DNA from: an uncultured virus (IMG/VR IMGVR_UViG_3300031998_000055)
Taxonomy: Duplodnaviria > Heunggongvirae > Uroviricota > Caudoviricetes
Virus record (IMG/VR): IMGVR_UViG_3300031998_000055
DNA: 64,000 nucleotides
Direction: 5' to 3' (one strand)
The notes beneath the pieces are model-generated. The model saw only the letters and a list, made by a program, of their open reading frames with translations. It had not been told where the DNA came from and searched no databases. Positions 12,301-38,795 of this stretch are shown here, in pieces. The position numbers and the translations under genes are program-made. The number at the start of each line of letters is the position of its first letter. The first letter of the stretch is position 1.

Positions 12301-12305
12301 GGGGA

Positions 12306-15812: not shown

Positions 15813-16298
15813 TCAGATCTTCCCATCCACGAGATCGAGGATGGATTGGTATATCAGCCCGAGCGCCGCCTTCCCCAGCGTTTGGCTGAAGTCGATGTAA
15901 TTCTCGCCTTCGCTCTTGGTCGGATCGGGGATGAACGACTGCTGCTGCGCGGCGAAGAACGCCGGATCGTCCCTTTCCGCTTTGTCGAGGTTGAAATGTA
16001 TCTTCACCGGAGGATTGAGCGGCTGGAAGTCGTAATCCCGGATCTCGATGGAAGAGAAAACCGGAAGATACTGCGTCTTCCGGTTCCTCTTGACTTCCCT
16101 GAACCTATAGGTGATGTACCCCGCGAAATCCACAAGGTGCCCTTTATCCCTGTACACCCTTTGGACGAGGGCGATGTAGTGGTCGTCGTCCGTTCCGGGG
16201 TTCGAGGTGACGGCGAGGTGGGCGTTGGGTCGGTCAACCGACAGGCTGCCCTCGATGATGGCCGCCAGGTGGAGCGGATTCTGATAATCGACTCCCAT
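15813..16298 (-). CDS. hypothetical protein
   Basis: 161-aa ORF with RBS. Confidence 0.65.
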   Translation of the reverse strand: MGVDYQNPLHLAAIIEGSLSVDRPNAHLAVTSNPGTDDDHYIALVQRVYRDKGHLVDFAGYITYRFREVKRNRKTQYLPVFSSIEIRDYDFQPLNPPVKIHFNLDKAERDDPAFFAAQQQSFIPDPTKSEGENYIDFSQTLGKAALGLIYQSILDLVDGKI

Positions 16299-16879: not shown

Positions 16880-16912
16880 AATAGGCTCCTTTCATGATAA
16901 TGATACTTATGA

Positions 16913-17212
16913 TTAGAATTCGGTAATCGCGGACATCACATCATCGATGCCGTATACCTTTTTGAGGGATTCGATGAATTCATCCCTGAGGCGGCTTGCC
17001 TCTTCGACCGCCCTATCCTCATTGAAGGTGGCTTGAGGGGGGATCGGGAATTTCTTCATTTCATCGAATAACGCGTTCCATAGGTCGTCGTACACGCATT
17101 CGCTTCCGACCACAAGAGTACATTTTCCCGCGATTTCGACAAGATCTACGCCATATTTCCCGAGGATCTCGGCCATCGCGGCTTTCGCTTTTTCTTTGGA
17201 TTCAAATTTCAT
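16913..17212 (-). CDS. hypothetical protein
   Basis: 99-aa ORF with RBS and leader motif. Confidence 0.65.
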   Translation of the reverse strand: MKFESKEKAKAAMAEILGKYGVDLVEIAGKCTLVVGSECVYDDLWNALFDEMKKFPIPPQATFNEDRAVEEASRLRDEFIESLKKVYGIDDVMSAITEF

Positions 17213-17252
17213 AGCGGTTTTAACTCCTTTATGATGATAATGATACGCTTCC

Positions 17253-19478: not shown

Positions 19479-19490
19479 ATGCCGACCTCC

Positions 19491-20573
19491 TTATATCCTG
19501 GTGCCGTACAGATCATCGAATAGGTCCATCCCGCTTTTCGGCGTCGGCGGGTTGGACGGCTGCTGGGCCTGCGGCTGCTGTTGGACCGCCTGCGCCTGCT
19601 GGGACATCCCGGGAGCGATCGGCTTCGGGGATGCCTTGTATTCGTTGTACATCTTGGTGATGTACGCGCCGACGACGGGCGTGGTGTAGAACATCTCGAC
19701 CTTTTCGGAGGGGAGCAGCGCCTTCCTGAGGACGTTGATGAACGTCGTCTTCACCCTCAGGGAGAATTGGTCGAGGGTGAGCGGCCCGCTCTGGGGGATT
19801 ACGCCCATGAGCCCCTCGAGCTGCCTGATGCCGCACGGCACGTGCTTCTTGGCGTTGTTCTTCGCCTCGACCATGACGGCCGTGCACAGATCGTATGCCT
19901 GATTGAAGAAATCGTCTTTGACCCATGGCCATTTCGACTTCCCGATCATCAGGAACGCCTTCTTCGACAAGCGGTCGACGTCGATGGAGACCCTGAACCT
20001 GTCGAGGAGCGCCTCCGGCACCTTGTTCGTGCCGACGCATCCGAGGTTCCCCGTCATGACGATTCGGAAGTTCGGATGTTTGTGGTAGATGTTGCCGTCG
20101 GCCACACAGTTGTAGATATCCGGCATCATGGCGAATTCCATCGCCTCGGTCATCAGGCCTTCTTTGAGCTGAAGCCCATCGTCCAGGACGCAGATCGCCC
20201 CGTTCGCGTAGCTCCAGAGGAGGGGGCCTGGCTGGAATACGGTCTCCCTCTCATCGCCGTCTATCCCCTTATGGGGATTGAACACGACTTTGCCGTTGAG
20301 GGCCGACCCCGGCATGGACGAATTGCAGGGGACGATGTAGACCGGTATGCCTTCCTTCACGCCGAGGTTGATGACGGTGCTCGTCTTGCATGTGCCGGGC
20401 TCCCCGGTGATGAGCAGGGGGATCCCGGCGAGCAATGCGTCGGAAGCGACTTCGTAGTCGCCGTGGATGGCGATCGGGTTGAGGGTATTCCTCTTGCTGA
20501 ACGCCAGGTTGTCGGCGAGCAGTTCCCGGGAGCGATTGTCCTGGTAATAGCTCGGATCTTGTTTGAACGGCAT
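19491..20573 (-). CDS. MoxR/CobS-like AAA+ ATPase
   Basis: Walker A GEPGTCKT, Walker B ICVLDD, HPNFRIVMTGN...ALLDRF. Confidence 0.88.
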   Translation of the reverse strand: MPFKQDPSYYQDNRSRELLADNLAFSKRNTLNPIAIHGDYEVASDALLAGIPLLITGEPGTCKTSTVINLGVKEGIPVYIVPCNSSMPGSALNGKVVFNPHKGIDGDERETVFQPGPLLWSYANGAICVLDDGLQLKEGLMTEAMEFAMMPDIYNCVADGNIYHKHPNFRIVMTGNLGCVGTNKVPEALLDRFRVSIDVDRLSKKAFLMIGKSKWPWVKDDFFNQAYDLCTAVMVEAKNNAKKHVPCGIRQLEGLMGVIPQSGPLTLDQFSLRVKTTFINVLRKALLPSEKVEMFYTTPVVGAYITKMYNEYKASPKPIAPGMSQQAQAVQQQPQAQQPSNPPTPKSGMDLFDDLYGTRI

Positions 20574-23915: not shown

Positions 23916-24307
23916 AGCAGGATCCTCTCGACGTTGTCCTTCGCGATGCATGCCTCGGCCAGCGGGAACACTGCGGTCTTGCCTTCCCCCGGCATCTCCA
24001 CGACGGCCAATCCGATCTCGAACCCGTCGTCGTCCGGGGATTCGGCCGCATTCTCGATGGCGTGGGCCAAAACCCCCATGAACCGACGGTCCCAGACCGC
24101 CTTCCCCTCATCGGGGTCGTAGTAGGTGCAGAGGCCCTTCCTCTGCTCGGGGGTGAGTTCGTTGAACACCCGGAGGAACATCAGCCGATGCTCGGCGGGG
24201 TTGCCCGGGAAGGCCTTCAGGTCCTCGGGGGCGGGGGAGGTTCCATCCTTTTCGCATCCGACGATGCCGGCGAGGATGATCGCCTTCATTCTGTTTTCCA
24301 TTTCCAT
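23912..24307 (-). CDS. hypothetical protein
   Basis: 131-aa ORF with RBS. Confidence 0.65.
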   Translation of the reverse strand: MEMENRMKAIILAGIVGCEKDGTSPAPEDLKAFPGNPAEHRLMFLRVFNELTPEQRKGLCTYYDPDEGKAVWDRRFMGVLAHAIENAAESPDDDGFEIGLAVVEMPGEGKTAVFPLAEACIAKDNVERILL

Positions 24308-24356
24308 GGTTTTGGGCGCCTTTCTTTATGTATATATCTTTTCGCCCATGAGCGCC

Positions 24357-24413
24357 GCCCCTTGCGGGGCATCGGGCTTGCACCGATCATCCTTGCGGAT
24401 GGGCCTTGCGGGC
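24357..24413 (-). repeat. tandem GCAA-tetraloop hairpins
   Basis: Four TTGC loops (GCAA on the minus strand) spaced about 15 nt apart, in short stems. Confidence 0.7.
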
Positions 24414-24638
24414 TTAGAATAAGCCGATCGCTCGTTTGTAGTTGTTGGAGATCTTCTTGGAAAGATCTTTGAGCCAAGCGACCGTATTGGCTTCATCATG
24501 CTTCAAAGCATGCATGATGACGAGCCTCTTGAAGCTATCGACGGTAATCAAGGACAAACCGTCGTGGATGAGCTTGGCCGCTTCGATGTTGAAGGCGCGG
24601 TCGATGGTGGTGCTGGTGATGGTGATGCTGTTGATCAT
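24414..24638 (-). CDS. hypothetical protein
   Basis: 74-aa ORF with AAGGAG RBS. Confidence 0.6.
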   Translation of the reverse strand: MINSITITSTTIDRAFNIEAAKLIHDGLSLITVDSFKRLVIMHALKHDEANTVAWLKDLSKKISNNYKRAIGLF

Positions 24639-24745
24639 GTTTTTTCTCCTTATATTATTATGATCAAACCATATCGTGAGATACGGTTCATTCAGCCTCT
24701 ATGGAAATAGAAGCTGAATGAACCCATCTTGCGATGGGTTGACGG

Positions 24746-25099
24746 TCATCTGCCGAAGATAAGCTGACGCTCCCTCGGATGCAAACCGCCGAGGTAGGAA
24801 TTGGGCGCCACGGCCTCCACGGCCAGGTCGCCGAGGATGTTGACGTCGCTTGGGGTGAAGACTCTGTGTATTCCCGCTTCGGCGTCGTCGTAATCGTGTC
24901 TTGCGATGGCATTACCTGCTTCACACGCGATGATATCGGAATGGGAGAGGGAGAACATGGCTGGGTCGTCGATATGTTCGATTGGGTTGTCGATATGTTC
25001 GATGACGACGAGGATGTCCCAGAGGTATTTCTCCACGGCGGGGATGGCAAAGGTCTCAATGAGGTGCTTTGCATGCTGGGCGTTGCATTCAGTGATCAT
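24746..25099 (-). CDS. hypothetical protein
   Basis: Start refined to MITECN after AAAGGA. Confidence 0.55.
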   Translation of the reverse strand: MITECNAQHAKHLIETFAIPAVEKYLWDILVVIEHIDNPIEHIDDPAMFSLSHSDIIACEAGNAIARHDYDDAEAGIHRVFTPSDVNILGDLAVEAVAPNSYLGGLHPRERQLIFGR

Positions 25100-25368
25100 A
25101 GGTTGATTCCTTTGTGCTGCATCCATTTCCTGAAAGCAAAAATGGCTTTATGCTGTTCGGGATATTCTTCTTCAAACTGAATGTGAATGGCTTTTCTGTC
25201 TTCAATTTGAAGGTTCCTTGTTCTTTCGAAGAAGCTATTCTGCGCTTTGATTACGGTGGTGATGGGGGCACTGGAAAGAGGTTTACCCTCGTCATCGGTG
25301 TTTGCTTTGACGATGTTCGCGTCGCTGACCATTGATTGGATCAGCATTCTTTTCTCTTCTTGACTCAT
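25096..25368 (-). CDS. hypothetical protein
   Basis: 90-aa ORF with GAAAGGA RBS. Confidence 0.6.
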   Translation of the reverse strand: MSQEEKRMLIQSMVSDANIVKANTDDEGKPLSSAPITTVIKAQNSFFERTRNLQIEDRKAIHIQFEEEYPEQHKAIFAFRKWMQHKGINL

Positions 25369-25395
25369 AATCTTTATTCCTTTCCGCCTTTCGGC

Positions 25396-26430
25396 TTATT
25401 TCTATGAGCGACACATGGCTGCAGGACTTCGGACGCTGCAGTGGTCTTAATCCAGATCCGCAGACCTGGACCCGTCGATATGTTGCCATGTCGTGGTTAT
25501 TCCCCTATCGCAAGGGGTATGTGGTGGGGAAGGAGACTTCTGTACTACCTGTTCTCCCTAGTCCCTGTTTCAGGCGCACTGACATTTGGGCTGTGCATTC
25601 TTGTTTGCCTCGGGTAAAACCCTAGCGTCTTGCTCCTCTTGGCTTAACGTCGCCTCAACCGGTTATCGCCATCTTCGTGATGGGCGGATTTTCCTGCTTC
25701 CCTTCAAGGGGAAGCGCCTTTCAGCGAAGGCCTCCAACTGTTACATATCGCTTGCGCATATCCTATCATTTGTCGGATATGTTTCAGGGCATGTTTGACA
25801 TGCTTTTGAGCGCGAACCGAAGTTCGTTGCTTCGCCCCCCATTGTGTTGGTTCGACGGAGCCTCTGGAAATGCAACTGTTCCAGGACCGGGCTTTTATGC
25901 GTTAAGCAGCCGGCTTGCTATGGACTTAACTGAATAAGTCCTCGCGGACCCCTGCCAGAGGGAACCAAAGGAAAGGAAGGGGTACAACCGCATAAGCGGT
26001 CAACCTTTCCCTTGATCCCCGTTTCGGCGACGGGGCGGTCTTGCTATAAAAGCAAGGATGCTGAGCATCTATCCATAGGGTATTATCCTATGGCTATGTA
26101 CGTGTAAGGAGTCGCCCGAAGGTCCCCTCCCCTACGCATATCTTTCGATATGCCCTTTCATTCTTTTTCATCGGTCCTTCAGACCGATTGGCTTAAAATG
26201 CGAGATAAAAACCAACCTGCTTTTCCCGACCAACAGGCTAAGTCGTTGCGACATGATCAAAAGCGATCTCCCAGCCGCAATTGGGGATTTTTTCGTATTT
26301 TCCGTTACGAAAGCCCCGGGACTTTGGACCCGGTCCTTGTTTCCAAGGAGGCCTTAACCAGCAAATCGCTGGCCCATCGGTTTATGAAAGAGCTACTTAT
26401 TAAAAATAGCTTTTTCACTTATAGAAATAA
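25396..26430 (+). ncRNA. candidate large structured non-coding RNA (~1035 nt)
   Basis: No credible ORF; more than 20 back-to-back hairpins; 13-bp closing helix between 25396-25408 and 26418-26430; G-U pairs mostly on +; followed by a terminator. Strand is inferred. Confidence 0.65.
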
Positions 26431-26431
26431 C

Positions 26432-26472
26432 GTAATTTACAAATTTTTAAAGTAAATTACTTTTTCTTTTTT
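26432..26472 (+). terminator. intrinsic terminator after the candidate ncRNA
   Basis: GTAATTTAC...GTAAATTAC followed by TTTTTCTTTTTT. Confidence 0.55.
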
Positions 26473-26511
26473 CACTATCTGGTTAAAGCACCGACTCACC
26501 CCGGCCAAAGG

Positions 26512-26532
26512 AAAAAGCCCCCAACGGGGGCT
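26512..26532 (-). terminator. intrinsic terminator of the RNA polymerase operon
   Basis: AGCCCCC-GTT-GGGGGCT-TTTT on the minus strand, just after the stop at 26538. Confidence 0.75.
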
Positions 26533-26537
26533 CATCC

Positions 26538-27029
26538 TTATCTCTCTCCTTCGTCCTTTCCCCCCTCCCCCAGCCACGGCAGGGAGACGGCGGTGAACGG
26601 GTCGCGGGACCCCACGCACCACGCCTTCGCGAGGCCCTTGGCGGCGAGGCCGTTCCACGCGGCCAGGTAGTCCTTCCGGGCCCTCAGGCCGGATAGGGCC
26701 ATGAGCTCGGCGTCTTCGTAGCGGATCCTGCCGGTCGGGTGCGGGCGGGCCCTCGCGAGCCGCGCCATCGCGCGGAGCAATGAGGCCTCGTCCTCCGGCA
26801 GGGCCATCGCGGATATCAGGGTTTCGTCCCCCTCCCCGAGCGGCGGGATGGGGTCCCCCCCGGGGGCCGGCAGCCTCCCCTCCCTCCCCATGCGGGCGAG
26901 CGGCTCGGCGGCCTTGGCGGCTATCCCGGGCTCGAGGCCCAGGGCGGAGATCGCCCCGGCCAGCGCCTTGGCGTCCCCGGAGCGGGCGGCCTCCCCTATC
27001 GGGGGGAGGCCTGCCTTGCGGGCGCTCAT
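26538..27029 (-). CDS. hypothetical protein coupled to the RNA polymerase gene
   Basis: Distal part of ORF 26538..29075; MSARKAG start overlaps the RNAP stop (ATGA), with GGAGG RBS. Confidence 0.6.
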   Translation of the reverse strand: MSARKAGLPPIGEAARSGDAKALAGAISALGLEPGIAAKAAEPLARMGREGRLPAPGGDPIPPLGEGDETLISAMALPEDEASLLRAMARLARARPHPTGRIRYEDAELMALSGLRARKDYLAAWNGLAAKGLAKAWCVGSRDPFTAVSLPWLGEGGKDEGER

Positions 27030-29962
27030 TCGGAGCCCTCCCAGCCCTCGGCCGGGCCCAGTCCGTCGTAGTCCCCGAAGAGGGCGCGCATCAGGCGCTC
27101 GATGGCCATGTCGGCCTGGGGGGCGGCGGAAACGGGCGAGTAGCGGGCGCCCAGGTACCCGATGGGGCCCTCCGGGTCCGGCTCGGGGGCCATGGCGGCC
27201 CCGGGCGGTATCAGCGGGAGGATCGCGGAGTCGAGGGCGTCCCAGGCGAAGGCCCAGTCGAAGCCCTTCCTCTCCCCCTCCATGATGGAGCATGCGCGGA
27301 GGAGCTCCGGCGGGAGCACCCCGGCGGCCGACAATATCCCCCTGACGTCGGCCATCATGGCGTCCAGCGCCTCGGCGCGGGCGTCGGCGAAGGCGGCGTC
27401 CCCCGGGTCGGCCCCGGCCGCAGATATCGCGGCGGCGAGGGCCTTGGAGCGGCGGCGGCGGGACCATTCGCGGTACGCGGCGCGGGCCGCCTCCAGCTTG
27501 GCGGGGGGGAGGTCGATCCCCGGGTAGGTGGGGAGCATGGTGCCGCGCGCCTTGGCGGGGGCGCCGAAGCGGAGGTCGAAGTCCTCGGACTCGACGGCGC
27601 GGCAGAGCAGGTTCATGGCGCAGGGCGCGGTTATGAGGGGGCTGTACTTCTCGTAGCGGCGGACGAGGCCGTCCTGGTCCGGCGTGCGCTGGGCGCGGGG
27701 GATGGCCAGCAGCCTCTTGAACCGGACGCCGAACATGGCGAGGGACGCCTTGTCGTAGGAGGACTCGAACTTCCTGTGGAGGGCGTCGAGCTCCGGGTAG
27801 AGGTAGCGGAAGAAGTACGGCTTCTTGGATATGACGGTGGAGTTGCGGCGGTAGGCCTCGCGGACCTCCTCGGGGGAGGCGGAGGCGGGGTCGGGGATCG
27901 GCTCGTGCCTCTTCCAGCGGGTGGGGAGGTAGGGCTTGTCGGCGCCCTTGATGCGGTCGATCTCCTGGCCGACGATCTCGCGCTCGAGCTTTATGCGGCG
28001 GAGGAGCTCCGCGCGGCGGGGGTCGTCGGGCCTGAATATGGCGGCCATGGCGTACATGCAGGTGGCGGCGTTCGAGAAGCCGCCGACGCCGGTGCCGAAG
28101 CCCTTGATGACGGTGTCCGTGATGTTGCGGACGGTCATCTTGGCGGGCTTGGCGAGGCCCTTGTCGTAGGTTATGATGGGGTGGTCCTTGTTGGCGCCCG
28201 CGATGAACTGCGGGTTGTCGGTGACGAGGACGATATCGCCGTCGAAATCGCAGTCTTCGCCCCTGGCGGTGGAGGTGTCGTACGTGGAGAGGACGCACCC
28301 CGAGTAGAGGTGGGAGAGCCATCGGTCGGCCTCCCCGCACCCCACCATGCAGGTGGAGACGTTGTGCTCGTGCTGGTCGATCATGGGGGACCGGCAGACG
28401 TCCACCCACGGCCCGGGGCCGCATTGGCCCTTGGGGGGATCCATCGGGGGCTGGGGGGAATCGATGAGGCGGCGGCGCCAGTAGTCGCACCAGACGTGGT
28501 CGGCCGGGACGACGCCGACGGGGTCGAGCCCGAGGGCGGCCTGGCACTGGGCCACGGGGTCGGATATGAGGAACTGGTAGCTCCCCCTGACCCATATGCG
28601 GCCGAGCTTGGCGCGGCGGATCGCCTCCTGTATGTTCTTGCGGACCTTCCGGAGGACGTAGGGGTCCCTGAGGAAGGCGGGGTTCTTGGCGGCGGCCTTC
28701 ATGGCCGTCGTCTGGGCGCACGACTGCATGCGGCGCTGGGCGGACTCCGGGGAGGACCCGGGGTCGACGGGGCCGAGCATGTAGAGGAGCACGGCCATCG
28801 GGTCGCCGGAGCAGACGCGGTGTATCCACCCGACCGTCGGGCGGATGAGCTCCTGCAGCTGCTCCTTGGAGAGCGTGAGGGCCTGTATGTACTGGTAGTT
28901 GGCCTGCGTCATGTCGGCGTCCCGCTGCTTCGAGTAGCGGGCGACGCCCCAGCGGATGCGGCCGGCCTCCGCGTAGGAGAGGTACTCCTGCCAGGAGGAG
29001 TAGTATTTGTGGGTCTTGAACTGGGACTCGGACACGATCGCGTCGACCTCGTCGATCGGGTACTCGCGCCCCCATTTGTCCCTTATGGTCTCTATCCCGC
29101 GCTCATGGGCGTAGGCCCTGAAGTCGAAGGCGACGAGGTCGCCCTTGATGAAGCACGAGCGGGCGACGAACGTGCACGGGACGTAGGGGAGGTCCATGTC
29201 GCGGGCCCAGAGCTCGGCGAATCCGGGGTCGATCAGGCCCTGGCCGTCGGCGCAGTTGATCTCTATGTCCATGGCGCGGCGCTCGAGGCGGGCCTCCTCG
29301 TGGGGGTCGGCCGAGTCGCGGACTATGAAGTCGACGGGCTGGGCCGGGATCGTGCGGAAGAAGTCCTTCACGACGCAGACGCGGGGGGTGCGGACCCACA
29401 TGACGGACGAGAAGGACAGGGCGAAGTACGCGGTGTACTTGGCCAGGACGAATTCCTCGGTCTTCTCGTCGAGGCCGCAGTTGAGGGCCTTGCAGAGCGG
29501 GGCCTTGAGGTCCTCGCGTACGAAGGTCGCGGTGTTGCGGCGGATCTGGCCGGACCCGGAGCAGAGGTACACGTAATGGGCGCCGTTGAAGTCGAAGCCC
29601 TGGACGCAGAACGACCGGAAGTCGGACTTCTTGGCGTCCACGACGACGTTGACGACCTCGCGGACGAACATCCTCTGGTTCATGAGCTGGCGGTAGACGC
29701 GGGCCTTCGAGAAGTCGCCCTCGCGCTTGGACGCCTCCATCTTGCGTCGGAGGGAGGCGATCTCCGCGAATATCTCGTGGTGGTCCCTCTCGTCGCCCCG
29801 CATGTAGCGGAGCTGCTGGAACACCTGGTTGTCGCCTATGGACACGACGTTGCCGTCGCGGATGCCCATGGCGATGGTGTAGCCGTCGACCGAAAGGCCC
29901 GACGACGCTATCAGCGACGCGGGCAGCTTGAATATCTTGTAAAGGTTCTGGATTACGGCCAT
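27026..29962 (-). CDS. YonO-like single-subunit RNA polymerase (double-psi barrel, related to eukaryotic RdRP)
   Basis: 978 aa; GSGQIR, ADGQGLI, FIKG, ANYQYIQ and RSP motifs; catalytic DFDGD at 28235-28249; EIDRIKG and KKPYFF. Confidence 0.88.
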   Translation of the reverse strand: MAVIQNLYKIFKLPASLIASSGLSVDGYTIAMGIRDGNVVSIGDNQVFQQLRYMRGDERDHHEIFAEIASLRRKMEASKREGDFSKARVYRQLMNQRMFVREVVNVVVDAKKSDFRSFCVQGFDFNGAHYVYLCSGSGQIRRNTATFVREDLKAPLCKALNCGLDEKTEEFVLAKYTAYFALSFSSVMWVRTPRVCVVKDFFRTIPAQPVDFIVRDSADPHEEARLERRAMDIEINCADGQGLIDPGFAELWARDMDLPYVPCTFVARSCFIKGDLVAFDFRAYAHERGIETIRDKWGREYPIDEVDAIVSESQFKTHKYYSSWQEYLSYAEAGRIRWGVARYSKQRDADMTQANYQYIQALTLSKEQLQELIRPTVGWIHRVCSGDPMAVLLYMLGPVDPGSSPESAQRRMQSCAQTTAMKAAAKNPAFLRDPYVLRKVRKNIQEAIRRAKLGRIWVRGSYQFLISDPVAQCQAALGLDPVGVVPADHVWCDYWRRRLIDSPQPPMDPPKGQCGPGPWVDVCRSPMIDQHEHNVSTCMVGCGEADRWLSHLYSGCVLSTYDTSTARGEDCDFDGDIVLVTDNPQFIAGANKDHPIITYDKGLAKPAKMTVRNITDTVIKGFGTGVGGFSNAATCMYAMAAIFRPDDPRRAELLRRIKLEREIVGQEIDRIKGADKPYLPTRWKRHEPIPDPASASPEEVREAYRRNSTVISKKPYFFRYLYPELDALHRKFESSYDKASLAMFGVRFKRLLAIPRAQRTPDQDGLVRRYEKYSPLITAPCAMNLLCRAVESEDFDLRFGAPAKARGTMLPTYPGIDLPPAKLEAARAAYREWSRRRRSKALAAAISAAGADPGDAAFADARAEALDAMMADVRGILSAAGVLPPELLRACSIMEGERKGFDWAFAWDALDSAILPLIPPGAAMAPEPDPEGPIGYLGARYSPVSAAPQADMAIERLMRALFGDYDGLGPAEGWEGSE

Positions 29963-30039
29963 CCAAGCCTCCTTCTTCTATCGGTTATCGGTTGTATTCT
30001 GATTGGCTTGCGCCGGGCGCGCATCCCCCTCGCGTCCGG

Positions 30040-30459
30040 TCAGGCCTCCCAATCCTCCTCGTCGAAGGGCTCGGGCTCTTTGCCGAGGGCGTCGCCCTTG
30101 GCGTGGCTCCAGAGCTCCGGCGAGTCGGCGAACATGGAGAGGACGGTGTCCATCTCGCGGTCCGTCGAGACGACGTAGGTCGAGGTCGGCGGGAGGCCGT
30201 CGGGCACCGCCGGATCCTTCGACTGGTGCACGAAGTACGCGCTGTCGGGGCGGCCATGCCCATGGTCTATGACGGTCATGCGGTGGGGGGTCCCCTCCTG
30301 CGTGACGTAGAGGGAGAAGCCCGCCTTCGACGGCGGGAGGGAGCGCAGGTGCCTCACGGCGGCCATCGCCACCCTGGACAGGCGTATCCTCGCGTCCCTC
30401 TTCTTCCTTTTCTGCTTGCGTTCGATGGTATGCTGGTCGGTCAGGTCCATGTCTCTCAT
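30040..30459 (-). CDS. hypothetical protein upstream of RNAP
   Basis: Start refined to MRDMDL after AAGGAGG. Confidence 0.6.
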   Translation of the reverse strand: MRDMDLTDQHTIERKQKRKKRDARIRLSRVAMAAVRHLRSLPPSKAGFSLYVTQEGTPHRMTVIDHGHGRPDSAYFVHQSKDPAVPDGLPPTSTYVVSTDREMDTVLSMFADSPELWSHAKGDALGKEPEPFDEEDWEA

Positions 30460-30505
30460 GTCCTCCTTCGGCCCGGGGATGGGCTTGTTCGTTCTCGTTG
30501 CGGAC

Positions 30506-30534
30506 ATTATAGCGCGGATCGGGCCGGAGGTCAA
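30506..30534 (-). promoter_or_regulatory. sigmaA-type promoter for the RNAP operon
   Basis: TTGACC-17 nt-TATAAT. Confidence 0.7.
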
Positions 30535-30902: not shown

Positions 30903-30932
30903 TTGACTCCGGGCCCCCGCATGCTGTATGAT
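30903..30932 (+). promoter_or_regulatory. rightward sigmaA-type promoter
   Basis: TTGACT-18 nt-TATGAT. Confidence 0.55.
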
Positions 30933-30963
30933 CGTGGCGGAACATCTCATAAGGAGGCGCCGC

Positions 30964-31764
30964 ATGATATTCGATTGGGAGGCCAACAGCATGAAGGTCC
31001 TGGCGGAGGGGAGGCTCTCCGCCTCGGACGACTGGGAGGCCAGGAGGGCGTTCGCCCAGGAGCTCGCGCTGCTCCGACACCTCATCTTCTCCAAAGGGAT
31101 GGGGAAGGCCGAGGCCAGGTCCGTGTGGGACGGGCTTTCGGGCGGGACCGCCGAGTCCCTCGCGTTCGACCCCCCCGCCAGGGACAGGGCGTTCGAGGCG
31201 GAATGGGAGGCCGCGTCTGGGGCCGGGCCGAACGAGCCGCTGCCCACCGTGGCGGTCACCCGGCAGGAGGCCGAATACCTCAATTCGCTCCAGGCCCCCC
31301 TCGACGTGAGGAGGTACTGGATCAGGCTCCTCGCGTACGTCAAGACCAAGAGGGCCATGGGGCGCACCCCCAAGGACGACCCCCGCGTCGACTCGTGGCT
31401 CATGAGGTCCGCCGGGATGCCCGGCAGGAGGGACGACGAGGTCAGGAGGGCCAGGATGTGGTCGCTCCGGTGCGGCGTGCCCTTCCCCCAGAGGGTGGTG
31501 CCCTACGCCGGCGGCGCGGTCAACGCGTACTTCCCCGGATGGCTGGGCGGCGACCCGGCCTGGGAGGGGAGGCTCGGCGAGTTCGATGGGCTCGATGAGC
31601 TGCTGGACCCCGGCTCGTTCCTGTGCCCGAGGTGCGGAACGCGGTTCGAGAGGGCCCCGAGGGCCAAGACGGATCTGTGCCCGGATTGCGCGGCCGAGGC
31701 CAGGAGGGAGGCCCAGCGCGGCAGGATGAGGGCCAGGAGGAAGAAGGATGTTATCGGGAATTGA
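30964..31764 (+). CDS. hypothetical protein with C-terminal zinc ribbon (possible transcription factor)
   Basis: CPRCG...CPDC; AAGGAGG RBS. Confidence 0.7.
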   Translation: MIFDWEANSMKVLAEGRLSASDDWEARRAFAQELALLRHLIFSKGMGKAEARSVWDGLSGGTAESLAFDPPARDRAFEAEWEAASGAGPNEPLPTVAVTRQEAEYLNSLQAPLDVRRYWIRLLAYVKTKRAMGRTPKDDPRVDSWLMRSAGMPGRRDDEVRRARMWSLRCGVPFPQRVVPYAGGAVNAYFPGWLGGDPAWEGRLGEFDGLDELLDPGSFLCPRCGTRFERAPRAKTDLCPDCAAEARREAQRGRMRARRKKDVIGN

Positions 31765-31863
31765 GGATTTATATAAGGTGGAAACGGGGAAGATGGGCGA
31801 TCCCATCCCGGCCCGTTGCGCAGGCCGCTTGCGGCCGACGGAAGCGAAAGGAGACGGATACCG

Positions 31864-33153
31864 ATGACTAAACAGGAATTCTGGCAATACGTCGAAGGCT
31901 TCGGGAAGAAGCCCGGCGAATTCACCGACGAGGAGCGCGAGGCGATCTGCCTCAAGGGCAAGACCGAGCTCTCCGCGAAGGACAAGGTCGGGTTCTGGGG
32001 CGAGCTGGCCGAGAGGCTCGGCGTCAACCCCGGCAACAGCCACAAGAAGGGCGAGGCCCTCAGGTGCTGGCTGAAGATGAGGCTCGCGAGGAAAGGCGAG
32101 CTCCCGAAGACCGTAACCATGCTCGACGGCAAGGTCATAGGCGACGCGGACGGGCAGTCCCTCGCCGCGATCGTGGCCGAGCAGAAGAGGGAGCTCTACA
32201 TGGCGCAGACCCTGGCCAGGGACGTCATGAACGAGTACAGGGACGACCTCCGCAAGGAGGCCAGGGCCCAGCTCCTCATCCGCGCCATACAGGAGGCGGC
32301 CGAGAAGATGCCCCCCCTCGGGTTCGAGCCGTATGAGAGGAAGGAGGGCGACGCCCCGTTCAGGGAGGCGGTCCTCGTCCTGTCCGACATGCACATAGGC
32401 ATGCAGATAAACAGCTTCTGCAACGTATACAGCGCCGACATCGCCACCAAGAGGATGGCGAAGCTGGTGTCCGACGTGGCCACGGAATGCGCCAGGTTCG
32501 GCGTGGAGACCCTCCACGTGCTCGACCTGGGCGACGCGATCCACGGCCTCATACACAATTCCGCGAGGCTCTCCCAGGAGTACGACGTGGCCGAGCAGGT
32601 CATGATCGCCGAGGAGCTCATCGCGGAGGCCCTCGCCAAGCTGGCGTCGGCGGTCCCCCACGTCACGTACAGGGGGTGCCTCGACAACCACAGCAGGATG
32701 ATGGCCAACTACCGCGACAGCAAGGACACGGAGAACTTCGGCCGGGTCATAGCCCATTTCCTCAAGGCGAGGCTCAAGGGCATCCCGTCCATATCGTTCC
32801 CCGAGGACAACCTCGACCCGTCCCTCGGGCTCCTGAGGCTCGGGAACGGCGAGAGCCTGATGTTCGCGCACGGCCACCTCGACAACCCGACGCAGGCCAT
32901 CCAGGAGATAGCCGGGATAGCGTCGTCGATGCCGGGCGGCCCGATCAAGGTGTCCTACTTCGTCGTGGGGCACTACCATTCCGAGAAATTGAAGTCCTAC
33001 CAGGGCTGCAGGGTGATCGTCAACGGATCCTTCTGCGGCACGGACGAATACGCATTGTCGAGGAGGCTCTTCAGCGCCCCCTCGCAGACCCTGCTCATCT
33101 TCAACGGCCAGAACCTGGTCGAGGAGAGGATAGGGCTGGACATACGCGCCTAA
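31864..33153 (+). CDS. metallophosphoesterase-fold protein (YonJ-like position)
   Basis: SDMHIG, LGDAIHG, DNH, AHGH and GHYH motifs; VNGSFCGTDEYA. Confidence 0.85.
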   Translation: MTKQEFWQYVEGFGKKPGEFTDEEREAICLKGKTELSAKDKVGFWGELAERLGVNPGNSHKKGEALRCWLKMRLARKGELPKTVTMLDGKVIGDADGQSLAAIVAEQKRELYMAQTLARDVMNEYRDDLRKEARAQLLIRAIQEAAEKMPPLGFEPYERKEGDAPFREAVLVLSDMHIGMQINSFCNVYSADIATKRMAKLVSDVATECARFGVETLHVLDLGDAIHGLIHNSARLSQEYDVAEQVMIAEELIAEALAKLASAVPHVTYRGCLDNHSRMMANYRDSKDTENFGRVIAHFLKARLKGIPSISFPEDNLDPSLGLLRLGNGESLMFAHGHLDNPTQAIQEIAGIASSMPGGPIKVSYFVVGHYHSEKLKSYQGCRVIVNGSFCGTDEYALSRRLFSAPSQTLLIFNGQNLVEERIGLDIRA

Positions 33154-33166
33154 GGGGGCGACGGGC

Positions 33167-34348
33167 ATGGACGGCCTAGCCGGGATGCTCGAGCCCGAGA
33201 TAAGCGAGATGATGGAGGACCCCGAGTCCTTCGCCGAGGCGGCCGCAGACATGGCGGAGGCCGAGGAGGAGGCGGAAAGGGGGCGCGCGGCCGGAGGGCC
33301 GTCGTTCTCCGAGTACAGGGGCGCCCCGTCCGAGACGGACAGGGAGGCCTACGAGAGGATCCTCAGGGAGGACCCCGCCGACGTGGCTGGGGCCCTTTTC
33401 AGATTCTGCTTCGAGCGCGACGTGTTCTACCATGAGAAGTACGCCAAGGCGTGCGCGTCGACTCTGGACGACGACGCCCTGAACGCCATGCCGCAGACGT
33501 ACCTCGACATGCTCTCGTCGGACCCGGCGTTCGACGGGCTGACCTTCTTCTCCCAGCTGAAGAGGGAGAACTTCGAGAAGGTCTATTCGGAGGACCTGAC
33601 GGTCCTCTCGCTGTCCGCAGAGGACAGGAAGAACAGGCAGCAGATCCTCAGCATAGTCAGCTACGATCCCTTCGAGGACGAGCCGGCTGAGGACAGGCCC
33701 CAGATGTACAGGGACCTGGCCGGCCTGCTCACGGACGCGATGCGCCGCGACATCCCCAAGAGGAACGCGGCGATCGAGATCGTCCACGACTACACCACCA
33801 TCGCGAGGTACCAGCGCCGCATGGCGCAGCTGGAGGTATCCGGCAACGACGACGACGAGACCCGCGAGAGGATAGACAACTGCATCAAGATGATCTCGAA
33901 GATGCAGGACACCATCAACAAGCTCACCAAGGAGAACGGCTTCTCCTCCGGCAAGGCCATAGGGGCCAACGGCAGGGGAGGGCTGTCCGATGTCATGGCG
34001 ATATGCGAGGAGCGCGGGTACGATCCCGCCGCGCCCAACATATACGACATGGAGACGTCGAAGGCGATCGAGGAGGTCGCCGAGATAAGCTTCCGGGCGA
34101 TGCTCAACCAGGTCAACCTGTCGGGCACCGACTACGCGGACATACTGACCGCGCAGTGCGAGAAGGTCCGGGAATACCGCGACGCGGCCCTAAGGGCCAT
34201 CGAGGCCAAGAGGCTGGCCGAGGAGAAGCTTGAGAAGCAGGCGATCCTCGAGGAATACCGGGCGGAGCTCGCCGCCAAGGGGATAAACGAGAAGGACATC
34301 ATGGAGATACTGTCTCAGGAGATCCATATGGTCAGCGGAGGCAAATGA
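33167..34348 (+). CDS. hypothetical protein upstream of terminase (possible small subunit)
   Basis: 393-aa helical ORF directly before TerL. Confidence 0.65.
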   Translation: MDGLAGMLEPEISEMMEDPESFAEAAADMAEAEEEAERGRAAGGPSFSEYRGAPSETDREAYERILREDPADVAGALFRFCFERDVFYHEKYAKACASTLDDDALNAMPQTYLDMLSSDPAFDGLTFFSQLKRENFEKVYSEDLTVLSLSAEDRKNRQQILSIVSYDPFEDEPAEDRPQMYRDLAGLLTDAMRRDIPKRNAAIEIVHDYTTIARYQRRMAQLEVSGNDDDETRERIDNCIKMISKMQDTINKLTKENGFSSGKAIGANGRGGLSDVMAICEERGYDPAAPNIYDMETSKAIEEVAEISFRAMLNQVNLSGTDYADILTAQCEKVREYRDAALRAIEAKRLAEEKLEKQAILEEYRAELAAKGINEKDIMEILSQEIHMVSGGK

Positions 34349-34351
34349 CCC

Positions 34352-36322
34352 ATGATCAGCGTCTACAGCCATTTGACCAACAACAACATGACCCAGAGGG
34401 ACGAGGAGTCCGTCAAGAGGTACGTGAAGCTCATACAATGGGGCAGATCGAACCCAGTGCAATTCGTGGAGTGGGGCCTCGGCGTCCCCTTGATGGATTA
34501 CCAGAGGTGGCTCCTCTCGATGTCATGGCTCGCGGAATACGTCGTATGGGTGTGCTCGCGAAGCGCGGGCAAATCCTTCTTATTGGGGAACCTGCTCAGC
34601 GCGAGGGCGCTGCTGTTCCCCAAGCAGAAAATAAATATAATGAGCTACGTGTCCAGGCAGGCGACCGAGACCTTCGCGACGATGGAGAACATCGTCAAGA
34701 GGAACGTCGCGGCGCTTAAGACCCGCAACACGGTCTTCATCGACGAGTTGAGGAAATCCAACGCCAACACGGACGGATTCACCCACAGCGCGAAGACGGG
34801 GAGCGAGTGCGAGCTCCTCAACGGGTCGTCGATCTCCGCCGTCGTCGGTACCGTTAAGACGGTCCGAGGCAAGAGGTCCACCTGCAACGCCTACGACGAG
34901 GCGGGCAGCATAGACAGGGAATTCTTCGACGTCACCGAGCCGTTCATGGTCCAGAGCGCGGACTTCGTCATGACCGAGGATGGGGTGAATTCCGCCATCC
35001 TCCCCAAAGGCATACCGAACCTCAGGCTCTACATAGGATCGGCTTCCGACACGGGGTCCGAGTTCTACAGGAGGTACCGCGAGGGGTTCAAGCAGATGCT
35101 CGCGGGGAATCCCCGCTACTTCGTGGCGGACATAAACTGCGACATACCGATGCATCCGACCCAGAACGGAAAGCCCAGAGAGCCATTGCTCGGGGCCGAA
35201 GAGGTCCAGAGGAAGATGCGCGAGAACGAGATACTCGCCAACCGCGAGTACTACAACATATTCGACCGCTTCAACGCGGAGGACTCTCTGGTGTCGCGCG
35301 CCGACATCAGGGACTGCTCCGACGCCTTCGTGCCGCATGTGCGGTGGGGAGGAAAGAAGCATAAATACGTGCTCTGCTACGACCCTGCGTCCAAGTCCGA
35401 CAACTCGCCCGTATTGGTGGGCGAGGTTTACAAAAACGACGACGGCATATGGGAAGGCAGAATCGTCAATCTCGTGAATCTGGTCGTGACTTACCCCGAC
35501 GGATCCCACAAGCCGATGAGGCTCGACGAGCAGCTCGCGAAGCTGAGGTCGATGATATGGGACTACAACGGGCGCGAGAAGGGCACCCCGTACGAGAACA
35601 TCATGGTCTTAGTTGATGCGGGCTCCGGCGGGCAAGCGCCCAGTTTGGCCCAGGAGCTCGTCAAGGACTGGCAGGACGAAGCGGGGATCACCCATCCCGG
35701 CATCACGGACGAGACCTGCAAGGACATGGAGAGGTGGGGGGAGGCGTTCCCCCACGCGATAAAGGAGCATTTCAGGCTCCTCGAGCCCCGCACTTACAGG
35801 AATTCATTCTTCGAATCGATGAAGGAGGAGATACCCGCCGGCCACATAAGGATGACGGTGGAGGCCCCGAAGTTCGACATCCTCGTCATAGACAAGGAGG
35901 ACGAGAAGGGAAGGGTCTACCGCGAGGAGAAGAAGCTCGGCAAGGACGAGCTCGCCGCCATGATCCAGATAGACCTCATGAAGGAGGAGGCCGTCAGCAT
36001 CGTGAAGACGAAGACCGCCGCCGGCAACGTCACTTACGGCCTGCCGCCGGAGAAGAAGAACAGGATGCACGACGACCGCGTGTACGTATTGGCGATGTTC
36101 TGCTGGTGGGTGAAGCAGCTTCAGATCGACGAGGCCCTCGGAGAGGGCCCCGCGATCGACTACCAGAAGGCATACATAGACAGGATGGCCGCAGCGGGCA
36201 AGGCGAAAGGGCAGCAACAGCAGCCCCAGATGCCGGACTCGCCCTGGGCCTCGCTCATATCGGGCGGGGGCAGGAAAAGGGCTTCGGCGAACCCATTCGC
36301 CGGATCCAAGAAGCCTTTCTGA
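34352..36322 (+). CDS. terL: terminase large subunit
   Basis: Walker A-like SRSAGKS, RGKRS...YDEAG, REY, YDPASKSDNS nuclease motif and HDDRVY. Confidence 0.9.
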   Translation: MISVYSHLTNNNMTQRDEESVKRYVKLIQWGRSNPVQFVEWGLGVPLMDYQRWLLSMSWLAEYVVWVCSRSAGKSFLLGNLLSARALLFPKQKINIMSYVSRQATETFATMENIVKRNVAALKTRNTVFIDELRKSNANTDGFTHSAKTGSECELLNGSSISAVVGTVKTVRGKRSTCNAYDEAGSIDREFFDVTEPFMVQSADFVMTEDGVNSAILPKGIPNLRLYIGSASDTGSEFYRRYREGFKQMLAGNPRYFVADINCDIPMHPTQNGKPREPLLGAEEVQRKMRENEILANREYYNIFDRFNAEDSLVSRADIRDCSDAFVPHVRWGGKKHKYVLCYDPASKSDNSPVLVGEVYKNDDGIWEGRIVNLVNLVVTYPDGSHKPMRLDEQLAKLRSMIWDYNGREKGTPYENIMVLVDAGSGGQAPSLAQELVKDWQDEAGITHPGITDETCKDMERWGEAFPHAIKEHFRLLEPRTYRNSFFESMKEEIPAGHIRMTVEAPKFDILVIDKEDEKGRVYREEKKLGKDELAAMIQIDLMKEEAVSIVKTKTAAGNVTYGLPPEKKNRMHDDRVYVLAMFCWWVKQLQIDEALGEGPAIDYQKAYIDRMAAAGKAKGQQQQPQMPDSPWASLISGGGRKRASANPFAGSKKPF

Positions 36323-36428
36323 CGCATATAGGCGCCGTTGGGAAAGCGCCCTCGCAAGAGGACGCTTGGCAATGCCGCCTAAGGCATGGGGGACCCGATC
36401 CCCGGATAGCGAAAAGGAGACGATTCTT

Positions 36429-36851
36429 ATGATAGTTTGCAAGATCATGGCCGATTTCGATTCCGCCGCCGGCGATTTCGACGGCCTGTTCAGCTCGCTC
36501 GCCCCCCTCGGGGCGATACTGTGCCCAGGCGACGCGATATTCTTCGCCTCGCCCTTGGACCCGATCGACAAGAAGAAGGTCAAGAGGCTCCTGAAGAAGG
36601 CAGGATACGCCGATTCCGTCGTGATAGAGTACGGGGTCGGGAACCCTCCGAAGGAATCCCCAGACATCAACGGGTGGATCTTCGATTTCGTGACCCAGAA
36701 CGCCATAACGCGGCTCGGGAGGGACAATCGGGAGGCCATCCGGGAAGGGATGCAGCAGCTGGACGAGATAGACTCCCTGATAGCGAAGGAGCTCGGCTCA
36801 TTGCCGGAGCCGCCGGAGCCGGAAGGGGAAGGAGAAGAGACGGAGGATTAG
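36429..36851 (+). CDS. hypothetical protein
   Basis: Start refined to MIVCKI after AAAAGGAG. Confidence 0.6.
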   Translation: MIVCKIMADFDSAAGDFDGLFSSLAPLGAILCPGDAIFFASPLDPIDKKKVKRLLKKAGYADSVVIEYGVGNPPKESPDINGWIFDFVTQNAITRLGRDNREAIREGMQQLDEIDSLIAKELGSLPEPPEPEGEGEETED

Positions 36852-36854
36852 CGA

Positions 36855-38795
36855 ATGGCCGAAGAAACCAAAAAGAAGAAGCGCGGAAGGCCAAAATCCC
36901 CCGCGCAGGAAGGCAGCGTGCTCGATGAGCCCGGGAACCAGCCCCTCATGATGGAGGAAGGCCCCTCGGTAGAGGCGCTGTCGCGCAGATGGAGGGACAC
37001 CTTCGTCAACATAATGAACCTCAGCAGCAGGGGCGTCGACGTGACGAATTACCTGTATGCGTGGAACAGGGCGAACCCGTTCGTCCAGAACCAGAGGGTC
37101 AAGGGGCTATCCGCGCAGCCCGGGACCTATCCCAAGGAGCAGCTCGCGAAGTTCGCGGCCAACCCCGGGTCGAGCGAGTACCAGCTCCGCTCTGCGGCGA
37201 TGTCGGCTTCGTCCTCGCAGCAGATATACTACAACATACTGCGCAGGTCGTGCGACGTGCCGCTGTACAACTACTTCGTCATCCCCGAGAACCTCGGCGG
37301 GGACGGGGATCCGTATTCCAAGGACGAATTCCGCGCGGAGGCTGCGCTCGCCGATGATTGGCTCGCCACCCTCAACGTCCCGAATTCGCTCAAGAACATA
37401 GCCCTCCAGGTCAAGAGGGAGGGCAAATGCTCCTATATAATGCGCACGCGCATGTCGGGCTCCGGGAAATCCCGCAAGACCGATTACGCGGCGTTCGAGA
37501 AGCTGCCGACCGACTGGATCAAGATCACGGGCATCGGGCAGCTCGGCTACACCGTCTCATTCGATTTCTCGTATTTCCTGCAGATCGGCAACGATCCCGC
37601 GTTTTTCGGCGAATTCTTCGTCGCCGCGTGGGAGGACATGCTGTCCAAGGGGATAGTCCGGGACGGGACCGACGGCAAGAAGGTCCTCGACGTGTCCATG
37701 GCCAGGAACTACAAATTCGATTGGAACGGGGCGACGATGTCCTCGTCCATAGAGTCGAGGATGGTCGACAGGATGCAGGAGAGGTTCATCTTCTGGATCA
37801 CCTTGCCATTCGATCTGGCGTACACGTTCGCGAGCGACAATTCCGTGCCGTTCGTGGCGCCGGACACTATAGGGCTTCTGCAGAAGCTGCAGGAGCTCAC
37901 CGACTACGGCACGCTGGCGGGCCTGATCGCCAGCACCCCCCTCACGGCGGTCCTCACGGGCGAAGCCGAGTTCATAGAGGGGGCCAGGGCGAACAAGAAC
38001 GAGACGAAGATCGCGCCTGAGGTCCTGATGGGGCTCCAGACGATGTTCAACTCGATGACCTCGTCCAACGTCGAGGCGTACTTCATGCCGCTGAAGAACA
38101 TTAAGCTCCAGCAGCTGAACGCCGACGTCAACTCAAGCGACATCACCACCCGCGCCATGGAGAACCTAGTGTCCTACGCCGGCGAGGGGGGTTTGACGAT
38201 CACCACCAACAAGCCAAGCATCGCGCAGGTCAGGGCTGCGGAGAAGCTCGTCGCCGAGCAGCAGAGGTACGTCACCCTGCAGATCGAGAACGTGCTGAAC
38301 TACATCCTGAGGTACGGGCTTGGGTTCAAGCATAGGTGGAAGGTCAGGATATGGGGAGACATCTTCTTCGCGGACGACGAGAAGTCCTTCGTGAAGGAGC
38401 AGGTCCAGGCGGGCAACCTCGCCCTCCTCCCCAAGCTCATGTCCGGAGAGGGCATAAGCATGACCGACGCCGAGGCGCTGACGAGATACGTCGCGAGCCT
38501 CGGCATATACGACTTGTTCCGCACCATGACCATGGATAGGGCCCACGAGCTCAAGGTCGAGGACGCGGGAGAGGATCAGGAGGGCGGAACCGGCAAAGTC
38601 GGGCGCCCAGCCATCCCCGAAGGGCAGATAACCTCGGACGCCACCGGGGTCTCAAGGGATTCCGGCTCCAATACCGCCGCCGGCCGCGAGACGGCCGAGG
38701 CGATGTGCCCCATCTGCCATGAAAGGCATGTGGAGGAAGGCGAAAGGATATGTGAGCATTGCCTCGAGGAGATCCTCGAGGACCATGCCGAGTGA
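36855..38795 (+). CDS. portal protein (SPbeta YonE-like position)
   Basis: 646 aa after TerL; LPTDWIKI...FDFSYF; C-terminal GRP. Confidence 0.75.
   Translation: MAEETKKKKRGRPKSPAQEGSVLDEPGNQPLMMEEGPSVEALSRRWRDTFVNIMNLSSRGVDVTNYLYAWNRANPFVQNQRVKGLSAQPGTYPKEQLAKFAANPGSSEYQLRSAAMSASSSQQIYYNILRRSCDVPLYNYFVIPENLGGDGDPYSKDEFRAEAALADDWLATLNVPNSLKNIALQVKREGKCSYIMRTRMSGSGKSRKTDYAAFEKLPTDWIKITGIGQLGYTVSFDFSYFLQIGNDPAFFGEFFVAAWEDMLSKGIVRDGTDGKKVLDVSMARNYKFDWNGATMSSSIESRMVDRMQERFIFWITLPFDLAYTFASDNSVPFVAPDTIGLLQKLQELTDYGTLAGLIASTPLTAVLTGEAEFIEGARANKNETKIAPEVLMGLQTMFNSMTSSNVEAYFMPLKNIKLQQLNADVNSSDITTRAMENLVSYAGEGGLTITTNKPSIAQVRAAEKLVAEQQRYVTLQIENVLNYILRYGLGFKHRWKVRIWGDIFFADDEKSFVKEQVQAGNLALLPKLMSGEGISMTDAEALTRYVASLGIYDLFRTMTMDRAHELKVEDAGEDQEGGTGKVGRPAIPEGQITSDATGVSRDSGSNTAAGRETAEAMCPICHERHVEEGERICEHCLEEILEDHAE

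What the first reader, a model, noticed from the sequence alone, without database searches (positions are those of the whole stretch)
25396..30534. RdRP-related YonO-like polymerase operon converging on the large structured RNA: possible polymerase-RNA system
Seen: a three-gene operon (139-aa ORF, 978-aa DFDGD polymerase, translationally coupled 163-aa ORF) with its own promoter and terminator ends ~40 bp from the terminator of the candidate ncRNA. Established: YonO of SPbeta is a DNA-dependent RNAP homologous to eukaryotic RNAi RdRPs and transcribes late genes. Inference: the RNA has no clear sigmaA promoter, so it could be a dedicated product, template, scaffold or 6S-like regulator of this enzyme. 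Adjacency alone does not prove a functional link.
Basis: inference. Interest (0 to 1): 0.75.

Follow-up and report, generated by a model that had tools for sequence, protein, structure and literature searches.

The report
Phage polymerase beside unrelated structured leader
A gut phage carries a YonO-type RNA polymerase whose steady neighbour in related phages is a small winged-helix protein, while the 1-kb folded non-coding stretch next to it runs in the same direction and looks like the front end of the early-gene transcript, not a partner RNA of the enzyme.

Summary
The three-gene operon is real: sigmaA-type promoter, 139-aa ORF, 978-aa DFDGD polymerase (25% identical to SPbeta YonO over 542 aa), overlapping 163-aa ORF, terminator. 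The polymerase-RNA system is not supported. The structured gap (25396-26430) folds better on the minus strand, so it is tandem with the operon, not converging. What was read as its terminator is a conserved promoter-like element (AAAAAWTGTAWATTAS) that heads the early arm across this phage clade. It lies 0.6-9 kb after the polymerase in 22 of 30 sites and on the opposite strand before it in 8. Long structured non-coding runs follow it in about 13 of 30, mostly unalignable to each other. The window RNA matches no Rfam family, is conserved in near relatives, and shares only a 17+12-nt motif with one distant lineage. The conserved neighbour of the polymerase is the 163-aa winged-helix gene (99 of 121 loci). 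A second motif before the late operon is a candidate YonO-type promoter; it scores poorly at the RNA head. Whether the phage enzyme transcribes the arm stays open. The scan noted similar leaders and polymerases earlier on other DNA.

The parts
30506..30534 (-). sigmaA/sigma70-type promoter of the polymerase operon (TTGACC-17-TATAAT)
   Evidence: 11 of 12 matches; a similar TTGACT-17-TATAAT lies before the operon in L087
30040..30459 (-). 139-aa ORF, no known family; found only in the two closest relatives
   Evidence: no family; tblastn hits in L078 and L087 only, of 155 loci
27026..29962 (-). 978-aa YonO-like single-chain two-barrel RNA polymerase, DFDGD at 572-576
   Evidence: Pfam RdRP E 5.2e-10; YonO 25% over 542 aa, E 9e-37; model pLDDT 85.5; best folds RDR2 and QDE-1
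26538..27029 (-). 163-aa translationally coupled protein with a C-terminal winged helix; the conserved neighbour of the polymerase; candidate accessory factor (inference)
   Evidence: homologue directly behind the polymerase in 99 of 121 loci; model pLDDT 87.5; winged-helix matches Z 7-8.5
26510..26533 (-). intrinsic terminator of the operon
26431..26451 (-). conserved promoter-like element heading the early arm (AAAAAWTGTAWATTAS; TAWATT resembles a -10 box, no -35)
   Evidence: 19 bp identical in L087; top window hit, 12.4 vs next 1.1, of a model trained without the window and L087
25396..26430 (-). 1035-nt structured non-coding region with paired ends (arms 26415-26430 and 25396-25411); no terminator called before the next gene; no Rfam family
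25737..25882 (-). bipartite motif shared with one distant lineage: hairpin with 9-nt loop (25882-25866) and a distal 12-mer (25748-25737) that can pair with the loop
   Evidence: 3 of 2000 shuffles share a 17-mer with any of 30 regions; not recovered by covariance model R1
25096..25368 (-). 90-aa ORF, first gene of the early arm, directly behind the RNA
   Evidence: no relative in viral contigs
24339..24416 (-). twister-sister ribozyme in the same arm
   Evidence: Rfam RF02681, 68.5 bits, E 1.7e-13
31755..31786 (+). weak match to the two-box motif found before the yonJ-like gene in relatives; candidate late (YonO-type) promoter
   Evidence: score 10.0, fifth-best site in the window, window not in training
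31864..38795 (+). start of the SPbeta-like late module: yonJ-like phosphoesterase, terminase large subunit (34352-36322), portal (36855-38795)
   Evidence: PHROGs 284, 2, 2739; same order as SPbeta yonJ onward only for yonJ shown

Best explanation
Two neighbouring but separate units. (1) An operon read by host RNA polymerase makes a YonO-type DNA-dependent RNA polymerase and a coupled winged-helix protein; by homology the enzyme transcribes the divergent late (virion) operon, probably from the two-box motif before the yonJ-like gene, possibly with the winged-helix protein as factor. (2) Behind the operon terminator a clade-wide promoter-like element starts the early-arm transcript. Its first 1035 nt are a folded, end-paired non-coding leader built of lineage-specific modules, running into small ORFs and a twister-sister ribozyme; it most likely stabilises or processes that transcript or is released from it as a stable RNA. 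Shown: genes, homology, fold class, gene linkage, position of the element, strand bias of folding, conservation in near relatives. Inferred: transcription itself, which enzyme reads which promoter, the role of the winged-helix protein, the leader's function.
For: YonO homology and fold. YonO strongly prefers DNA templates and is needed for 37 late genes, while the other induced SPbeta genes stay expressed without it (PMC5467207). Minus-strand folding. Element is the top-scoring site in 7 of 7 whole relatives, 5 of them not in training; 22 of 30 sites are on the polymerase strand 0.6-9 kb behind it and 8 of 30 on the opposite strand 3.0-7.2 kb before it. It is followed by a short leader and ORFs in some phages (L005, L010, L098, L118) and by long structured runs in others. 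Ribozymes recur in these arms. Winged-helix gene linkage 99 of 121. Late two-box motif: leave-one-out p<=0.05 in 22 of 51, a second identical copy inside the late operon of G005, RNA head only 4.0.
Against: No transcript data. The arm element has no -35 box and occurs throughout a clade that encodes this polymerase, so it could be read by the phage enzyme. A one-box version of the late motif scored 10.1 at the RNA's 5' end (shuffle p 0.026) and 9.6 in the L087 leader (p 0.018), better than at the window's own late site (5.2, p 0.088); the two-box model still gave 13.8 in the L087 leader. In SPbeta a 1.7-kb RNA-bearing gap does lie shortly behind yonO and holds the YonO start site. The paired ends (probability about 0.99) fit one discrete RNA as well as a mosaic leader. 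Near-identical relatives keep the adjacency.
Confidence: 0.6

Rival explanations
1. Same anatomy, but the arm element is a promoter of the phage polymerase (perhaps with the winged-helix protein), so the RNA is the first product of the enzyme, as class II genes are for T7-type phages (comparison recalled), without being its partner.
For: No -35 box; element conserved and close to single-copy across the clade; polymerase operon has a strong host promoter and so could be made first; one-box late motif scores at two leader heads; SPbeta YonO starts upstream of an unannotated non-coding RNA.
Against: Arm and late motifs have different consensus; two-box late model gives 4.0 at the RNA head; TAWATT fits a host -10 box; in SPbeta only late genes need YonO; best arm-element score in the 11-kb SPbeta locus is 2.8.
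Confidence: 0.22
2. One reading: the RNA is a dedicated template, scaffold or 6S-like regulator of the polymerase.
For: Shortest distance in the survey (0.58 kb); closest solved folds are RNA-dependent enzymes RDR2 and QDE-1; long structured regions lie within 2 kb behind the polymerase in L087, L156 and L159 too.
Against: RNA body not found at 167 polymerase loci by nhmmer/blastn, in 44 related records or in 401 Bacilli-order genomes by BLAST; 55 of 64 dereplicated loci have no ORF-free run of 600 nt within 3 kb behind the polymerase; position varies with the arm; multibranched, longest unbranched stem-loop 89 nt, unlike 6S; no antisense or second copy in the window; YonO disfavours RNA templates.
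Confidence: 0.06
3. The gap is not mainly a minus-strand RNA: either a DNA element (miniature mobile element with 16-bp inverted ends, or a replication/packaging signal) or a plus-strand RNA.
For: 16-nt inverted ends, 88% complementary; closing helix predicted on both strands; G-U/A-C count neutral; a 9-of-12 promoter-like site on plus at 25740-25769; in several relatives antisense z is as low as sense z.
Against: No target-site duplication seen at the flanks (read); no second copy in the window; A-rich unpaired bases and capped tetraloops on minus; the shared loop-strand pairing needs a G-U pair that exists only on minus; an 8-nt deletion in X3 and X4 falls in a hairpin and leaves a stem.
Confidence: 0.1

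Closest known systems
YonO of Bacillus subtilis phage SPbeta (Forrest et al. 2017, PMC5467207)
   Same: 25% identity over 542 aa, DxDGD motif, single chain of similar size, neighbouring yonJ-like, terminase and portal genes.
   Different: Here the late module is divergent and upstream; a coupled winged-helix gene follows, which profile A5 did not detect in the SPbeta or PMBT24 loci; no HU gene.
SPbeta yonN-yonK gap with the YonO start site, skipping-rope-like and DUF3800-VIII RNAs
   Same: Long non-coding stretch on the polymerase strand shortly behind the polymerase gene.
   Different: That gap heads the late operon; this one heads the early arm. No sequence similarity (best blastn E 0.84) and neither Rfam family hits here.
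Eukaryotic RNAi polymerases RDR2 and QDE-1 (Pfam PF05183)
   Same: Best structural matches, E 6e-17 to 4e-12.
   Different: 12-15% identity, TM 0.35-0.44; the tested phage homologue YonO is DNA-dependent.
Large ornate phage RNAs GOLLD, ROOL (Rfam; 10.1101/2024.12.08.627333 seen as listing only; PMC10383478 passages)
   Same: Size near 1 kb, multibranched, phage-encoded.
   Different: No Rfam match at E<=10, no tRNA in the window, no terminator of its own, body not conserved across the clade.
Self-cleaving ribozymes in phage early polycistronic transcripts (hammerhead example in PMC3088659, passages)
   Same: Twister-sister in this arm; pistol, twister, twister-sister in relatives' arms.
   Different: The 1035-nt region itself holds no Rfam ribozyme and no hammerhead core by pattern.

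Membership tests
YonO-like single-chain two-barrel RNA polymerases | Catalytic DxDGD aspartate triad | tested here: met
   D572, D574, G575, D576 invariant in 27 of 27 aligned sequences (rows were chosen for carrying the motif)
YonO-like single-chain two-barrel RNA polymerases | Sequence homology to SPbeta YonO | tested here: met
   25% over 542 aa, E 9e-37; 39 phage records hit, including SPBc2 yonO
YonO-like single-chain two-barrel RNA polymerases | Two-barrel fold related to RDR2/QDE-1 in one chain of about 100 kDa | tested here: met
   Model pLDDT 85.5; Foldseek best matches RDR2 and QDE-1, then Thermus phage and phi14:2 polymerases
YonO-like single-chain two-barrel RNA polymerases | DNA-templated synthesis and transcription of late genes | not testable with these tools
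   Shown only for SPbeta YonO
6S RNA | Rfam match | tested here: not met
   No such hit at E<=10 in 24000-27000
6S RNA | Single long rod with central bubble (feature recalled) | tested here: not met
   28 hairpin loops, longest unbranched stem-loop 89 nt
GOLLD, ROOL, OLE, HEARO and other Rfam large RNAs | Covariance-model match | tested here: not met
   best hit inside the gap was a microRNA model at E 0.99
Group I or II intron | Rfam match and insertion in a gene | tested here: not met
   No hit; region is intergenic
SPbeta-type RNA island at the YonO late start | Lies at the head of the late operon | tested here: not met
   Late module starts on the other side of the operon
Miniature inverted-repeat mobile element | Terminal inverted repeats, target duplication, further copies | tested here: inconclusive
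   16-nt inverted ends present; no duplication seen; no copy in the window, rest of genome not held
Winged-helix proteins (163-aa ORF) | Winged-helix fold | tested here: met
   Residues 63-155 match winged helices: RPC62 Z 8.5, rmsd 2.3 over 76; TFE Z 7.8, rmsd 3.4 over 82; Foldseek E only 0.1-0.2; no particular family can be named

The most novel reading that the evidence does not exclude
The conserved arm element is a promoter of the YonO-type enzyme and its winged-helix partner, and the 1035-nt end-paired RNA is a discrete ornate RNA of an undescribed family (conserved loop-strand pseudoknot) that binds or regulates that enzyme, i.e. a phage transcription machine with an RNA component.
Probability: 0.06. 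Interest if true: 0.85.

Novelty: new variant of a known kind. Interest (0 to 1): 0.45.

Why it matters
Forrest et al. left open which promoter YonO reads and whether it needs factors; my searches found no later answer in the library. This clade offers testable candidates for both: a two-box motif before the late operon and a coupled winged-helix protein. The early-arm slot also holds many uncatalogued 0.6-1.3-kb structured RNAs. The more exciting claim, an RNA partner for an RdRP-related phage enzyme, is not supported.

Tried and rejected
No whole genome is held. No RNA holder listed among 22 runs, which says nothing on expression. Runs X5 and X7 have no cover over most of the gap, but no contig joins across it, so this was not used. 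Homologue searches for the RNA body found nothing: GenBank phages, exact 23-mer, 44 records and 401 genomes gave only short, mostly AT-rich hits near the 5' element. The exact 19-mer scan gave 2 chance hits in coding DNA. Of 18 hits to the 17-mer, 8 lack the distal half; of 19 hits to the bipartite pattern, 7 are the known lineage and the other 12 lie in or across ORFs of unrelated contigs. Covariance model R1 from 12 sequences of that lineage (92% identical, almost no covariation) did not find the window module with or without filters, nor anything in 90 other loci. An unseeded Gibbs search found only CxxC codons; the late motif was seeded by eye and from enriched 8-mers, so its p-values are optimistic. 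Folding z-scores use 5-8 shuffles and are rough; ORF-filled arm starts L005 and L118 also gave z -9.7 and -6.6, so hairpin richness alone does not prove a giant RNA. The ORF filter misses GC-rich genes (it missed the 163-aa ORF itself). nhmmer --max runs reported zero residues processed, so only the blastn result is used for SPbeta. No T-arm or tRNA-like element in the window RNA, no hammerhead core. Complex prediction for polymerase residues 1-800 with ORF163 residues 55-155 gave no verdict (0.07, 0.61, 0.00). No sequence match in solved structures for the polymerase or at E<0.1 for the ORF163 profile. Relatives of ORF90 and of the L087 loop ORF were not found in viral contigs. One search was a mistaken query and is not used.

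Full report
Context. The window is part of a large SPbeta-like phage from gut metagenomes (runs X3, X4, X5, X7 laid; X1 may be the source). Left of 30.6 kb small ORFs run on the minus strand; right of it a virion module runs on plus (phosphoesterase, terminase, portal). Relatives are mostly 110-215-kb contigs with polymerases 24-75% identical. The host is unknown; one relative lies in a Bacilli bin, others in bins of other groups.

The operon. All three ORFs, the promoter and the terminator are as described. The large protein hits Pfam RdRP, aligns with SPbeta YonO at 25% over 542 aa, and its model (pLDDT 85.5) matches RDR2 and QDE-1 best, then phage two-barrel polymerases. I read the abstract, results, discussion and start of methods of PMC5467207 (parts 1-2 of 5), plus passages of its main text and two supplements: YonO strongly prefers DNA templates, is needed for 37 late genes, starts upstream of yonK and of an unannotated non-coding RNA, and its promoter and factor needs were left open. 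DNA-dependent late transcription here is an inference from that homology.

The gap is tandem, not convergent. Minus-strand folding is better by z-score, capped tetraloops, confident pairs and A-rich loops; one neutral test did not discriminate. A 16-nt inverted pair closes 26430-25396. No terminator was called between 25396 and ORF90, and a twister-sister ribozyme lies 1 kb further on the same strand. The 5' half is locally well structured, the 3' half is not. The contigs may come from different strains. This indicates constraint, not proof of structure.

Is the RNA linked to the polymerase? Its body was not found at any of 167 polymerase loci, in 44 related records or in 401 genomes. Of 64 dereplicated loci with 3 kb behind the polymerase, 9 showed an ORF-free run of 600 nt or more, several being GC-rich genes missed by my filter; L087, L156, L159 and the 571-nt L165 run were structured and not alignable to the window RNA beyond the 5' element. 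The only clear shared sequence with L087 was a 19-bp element at 26449-26431. A profile of it finds the window site without being trained on it and gives a top site in each of 7 whole relatives, G009 having a second. With a pattern widened after seeing sites, 31 dereplicated sites were collected and one (L009 7139, upstream on the polymerase strand) was dropped before counting. Of the 30 kept, 22 are on the polymerase strand 0.6-9 kb behind it and 8 are on the opposite strand 3.0-7.2 kb before it, in phages whose late genes follow the polymerase in tandem. So the element marks the head of the early arm wherever it lies. An automated count finds 600 nt or more of non-coding sequence in the next 1.3 kb in 13 of 30; others go straight into ORFs. 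These regions fall into separate lineages that do not align with each other.

One link to another lineage. The window RNA shares a 17-mer and, 120 nt later (137-151 in the others), a 12-mer with the L021-L051 lineage (polymerase 44-45% identical), in the same slot and strand. The 17-mer forms a hairpin whose stem extension differs yet still pairs, and its loop can pair over 7 bp with the distal strand through a G-U pair. Chance of the 17-mer is about 3 in 2000. But this is two lineages, the pairing itself is invariant, and model R1 did not recover it. It fits exchangeable modules, a wording I took from earlier finding e1-5884839, or a very diverged common ancestor.

What does travel with the polymerase. 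A homologue of the 163-aa ORF directly follows it, usually overlapping the stop, in 99 of 121 loci, not dereplicated; in L111 and L116 it is displaced by an inserted ORF and in L015, L023 and L032 it lies nearby; it was not detected in SPbeta, PMBT24 or 8 other loci tested. Its C-terminal domain is a winged helix; matches include RPC62 and TFE but also ordinary regulators and DnaD, so the fold names no function. A role as accessory factor is inference.

Candidate late promoter. Before the yonJ-like gene many relatives carry CAGGAAAA-N11-ATATATGGAAAG: leave-one-out p<=0.05 in 22 of 51 (two-box) or 28 of 51 (one-box). The window's site is weak (10.0), SPbeta's start interval weaker (4.8; interval placed by eye from the paper's primers), and the top window hit (1091, minus) overlaps an ordinary TATAAT promoter, so part of the motif may be a -10 box. 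The RNA head scores 10.1 with one box and 4.0 with two. The result is mixed; I lean to the arm being read by host polymerase but cannot show it.

Literature. Passages of 10.1101/2021.11.22.469490 place the SPbeta genome opening between yonR and yonP, just before yonO, which may explain why many related contigs begin 1.2-1.9 kb before the polymerase. Passages of PMC3088659 describe a hammerhead at the 5' end of an early polycistronic phage transcript and the U4C core variant. Passages of PMC10383478 mention long non-coding RNAs in staphylococcal phages. Searches (listings only) returned no description of this clade's leaders, arm element or late motif; the library lacks most subscription journals, and bioRxiv supplements were not available, so a catalogue of candidate phage RNAs could hold them.

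Verdict. A new member of the YonO family in a variant arrangement with a coupled winged-helix gene, next to an uncatalogued structured early-arm leader. The polymerase-RNA system is unlikely (about 0.06); the RNA being merely a product of the enzyme is possible (about 0.22). Interest 0.45, mainly because promoter and factor candidates make an open question testable.

Noticed in passing
window 834-17244, minus strand: ATCATTATCAT (<=1 mismatch) lies at 17 minus-strand sites in the left arm, nearly all a few bases before a ribosome-binding site, several behind a GC hairpin; not seen in this role in 9 relatives checked. Possibly a translation enhancer or protein-binding site.
   Followed up: partly
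L087 10150-11385: Ornate region with a 129-aa ORF enclosed by a long helix and a type III hammerhead-like element with a U4C-type core just before the next gene; a similar element in L118.
   Followed up: partly
window 24660-24745, minus strand: Two strong hairpins before the 74-aa ORF (local z about -7.7) that are covered in all four laid runs although flanking ORFs differ.
   Followed up: no
L005, L017, L020, L034, L111 and others: Many polymerase genes of relatives span 3.0-4.0 kb instead of 2.8 kb, suggesting introns or inteins.
   Followed up: no
L012, L017, L020, L050 leaders: A family of 750-950-nt structured leaders with a nearly invariant 70-nt core, 66% mean identity; a better target for covariation analysis than the window RNA.
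   Followed up: partly
L005 11348-11562; L111, L114, L116 directly behind the polymerase: A HEARO RNA (L005) or inserted ORFs sit between the polymerase and the winged-helix gene in some relatives.
   Followed up: no
window 30928-31764, plus strand: 278-aa ORF with a C-terminal CxxC pair, conserved beside the yonJ-like gene; in distant relatives the gene behind the polymerase carries a similar CxxC tail.
   Followed up: no
window 1-340: Non-coding, very GC-rich end with long C and G runs and hairpins.
   Followed up: no
G011 73391-74293 (L236); G005 49626-51800 (L206): Further long, strongly folding ORF-free regions far from the polymerase; L206 had no Rfam hit.
   Followed up: no
window 17253-20573, minus strand: AAA ATPase and vWA-domain gene pair in the early arm.
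   Followed up: no
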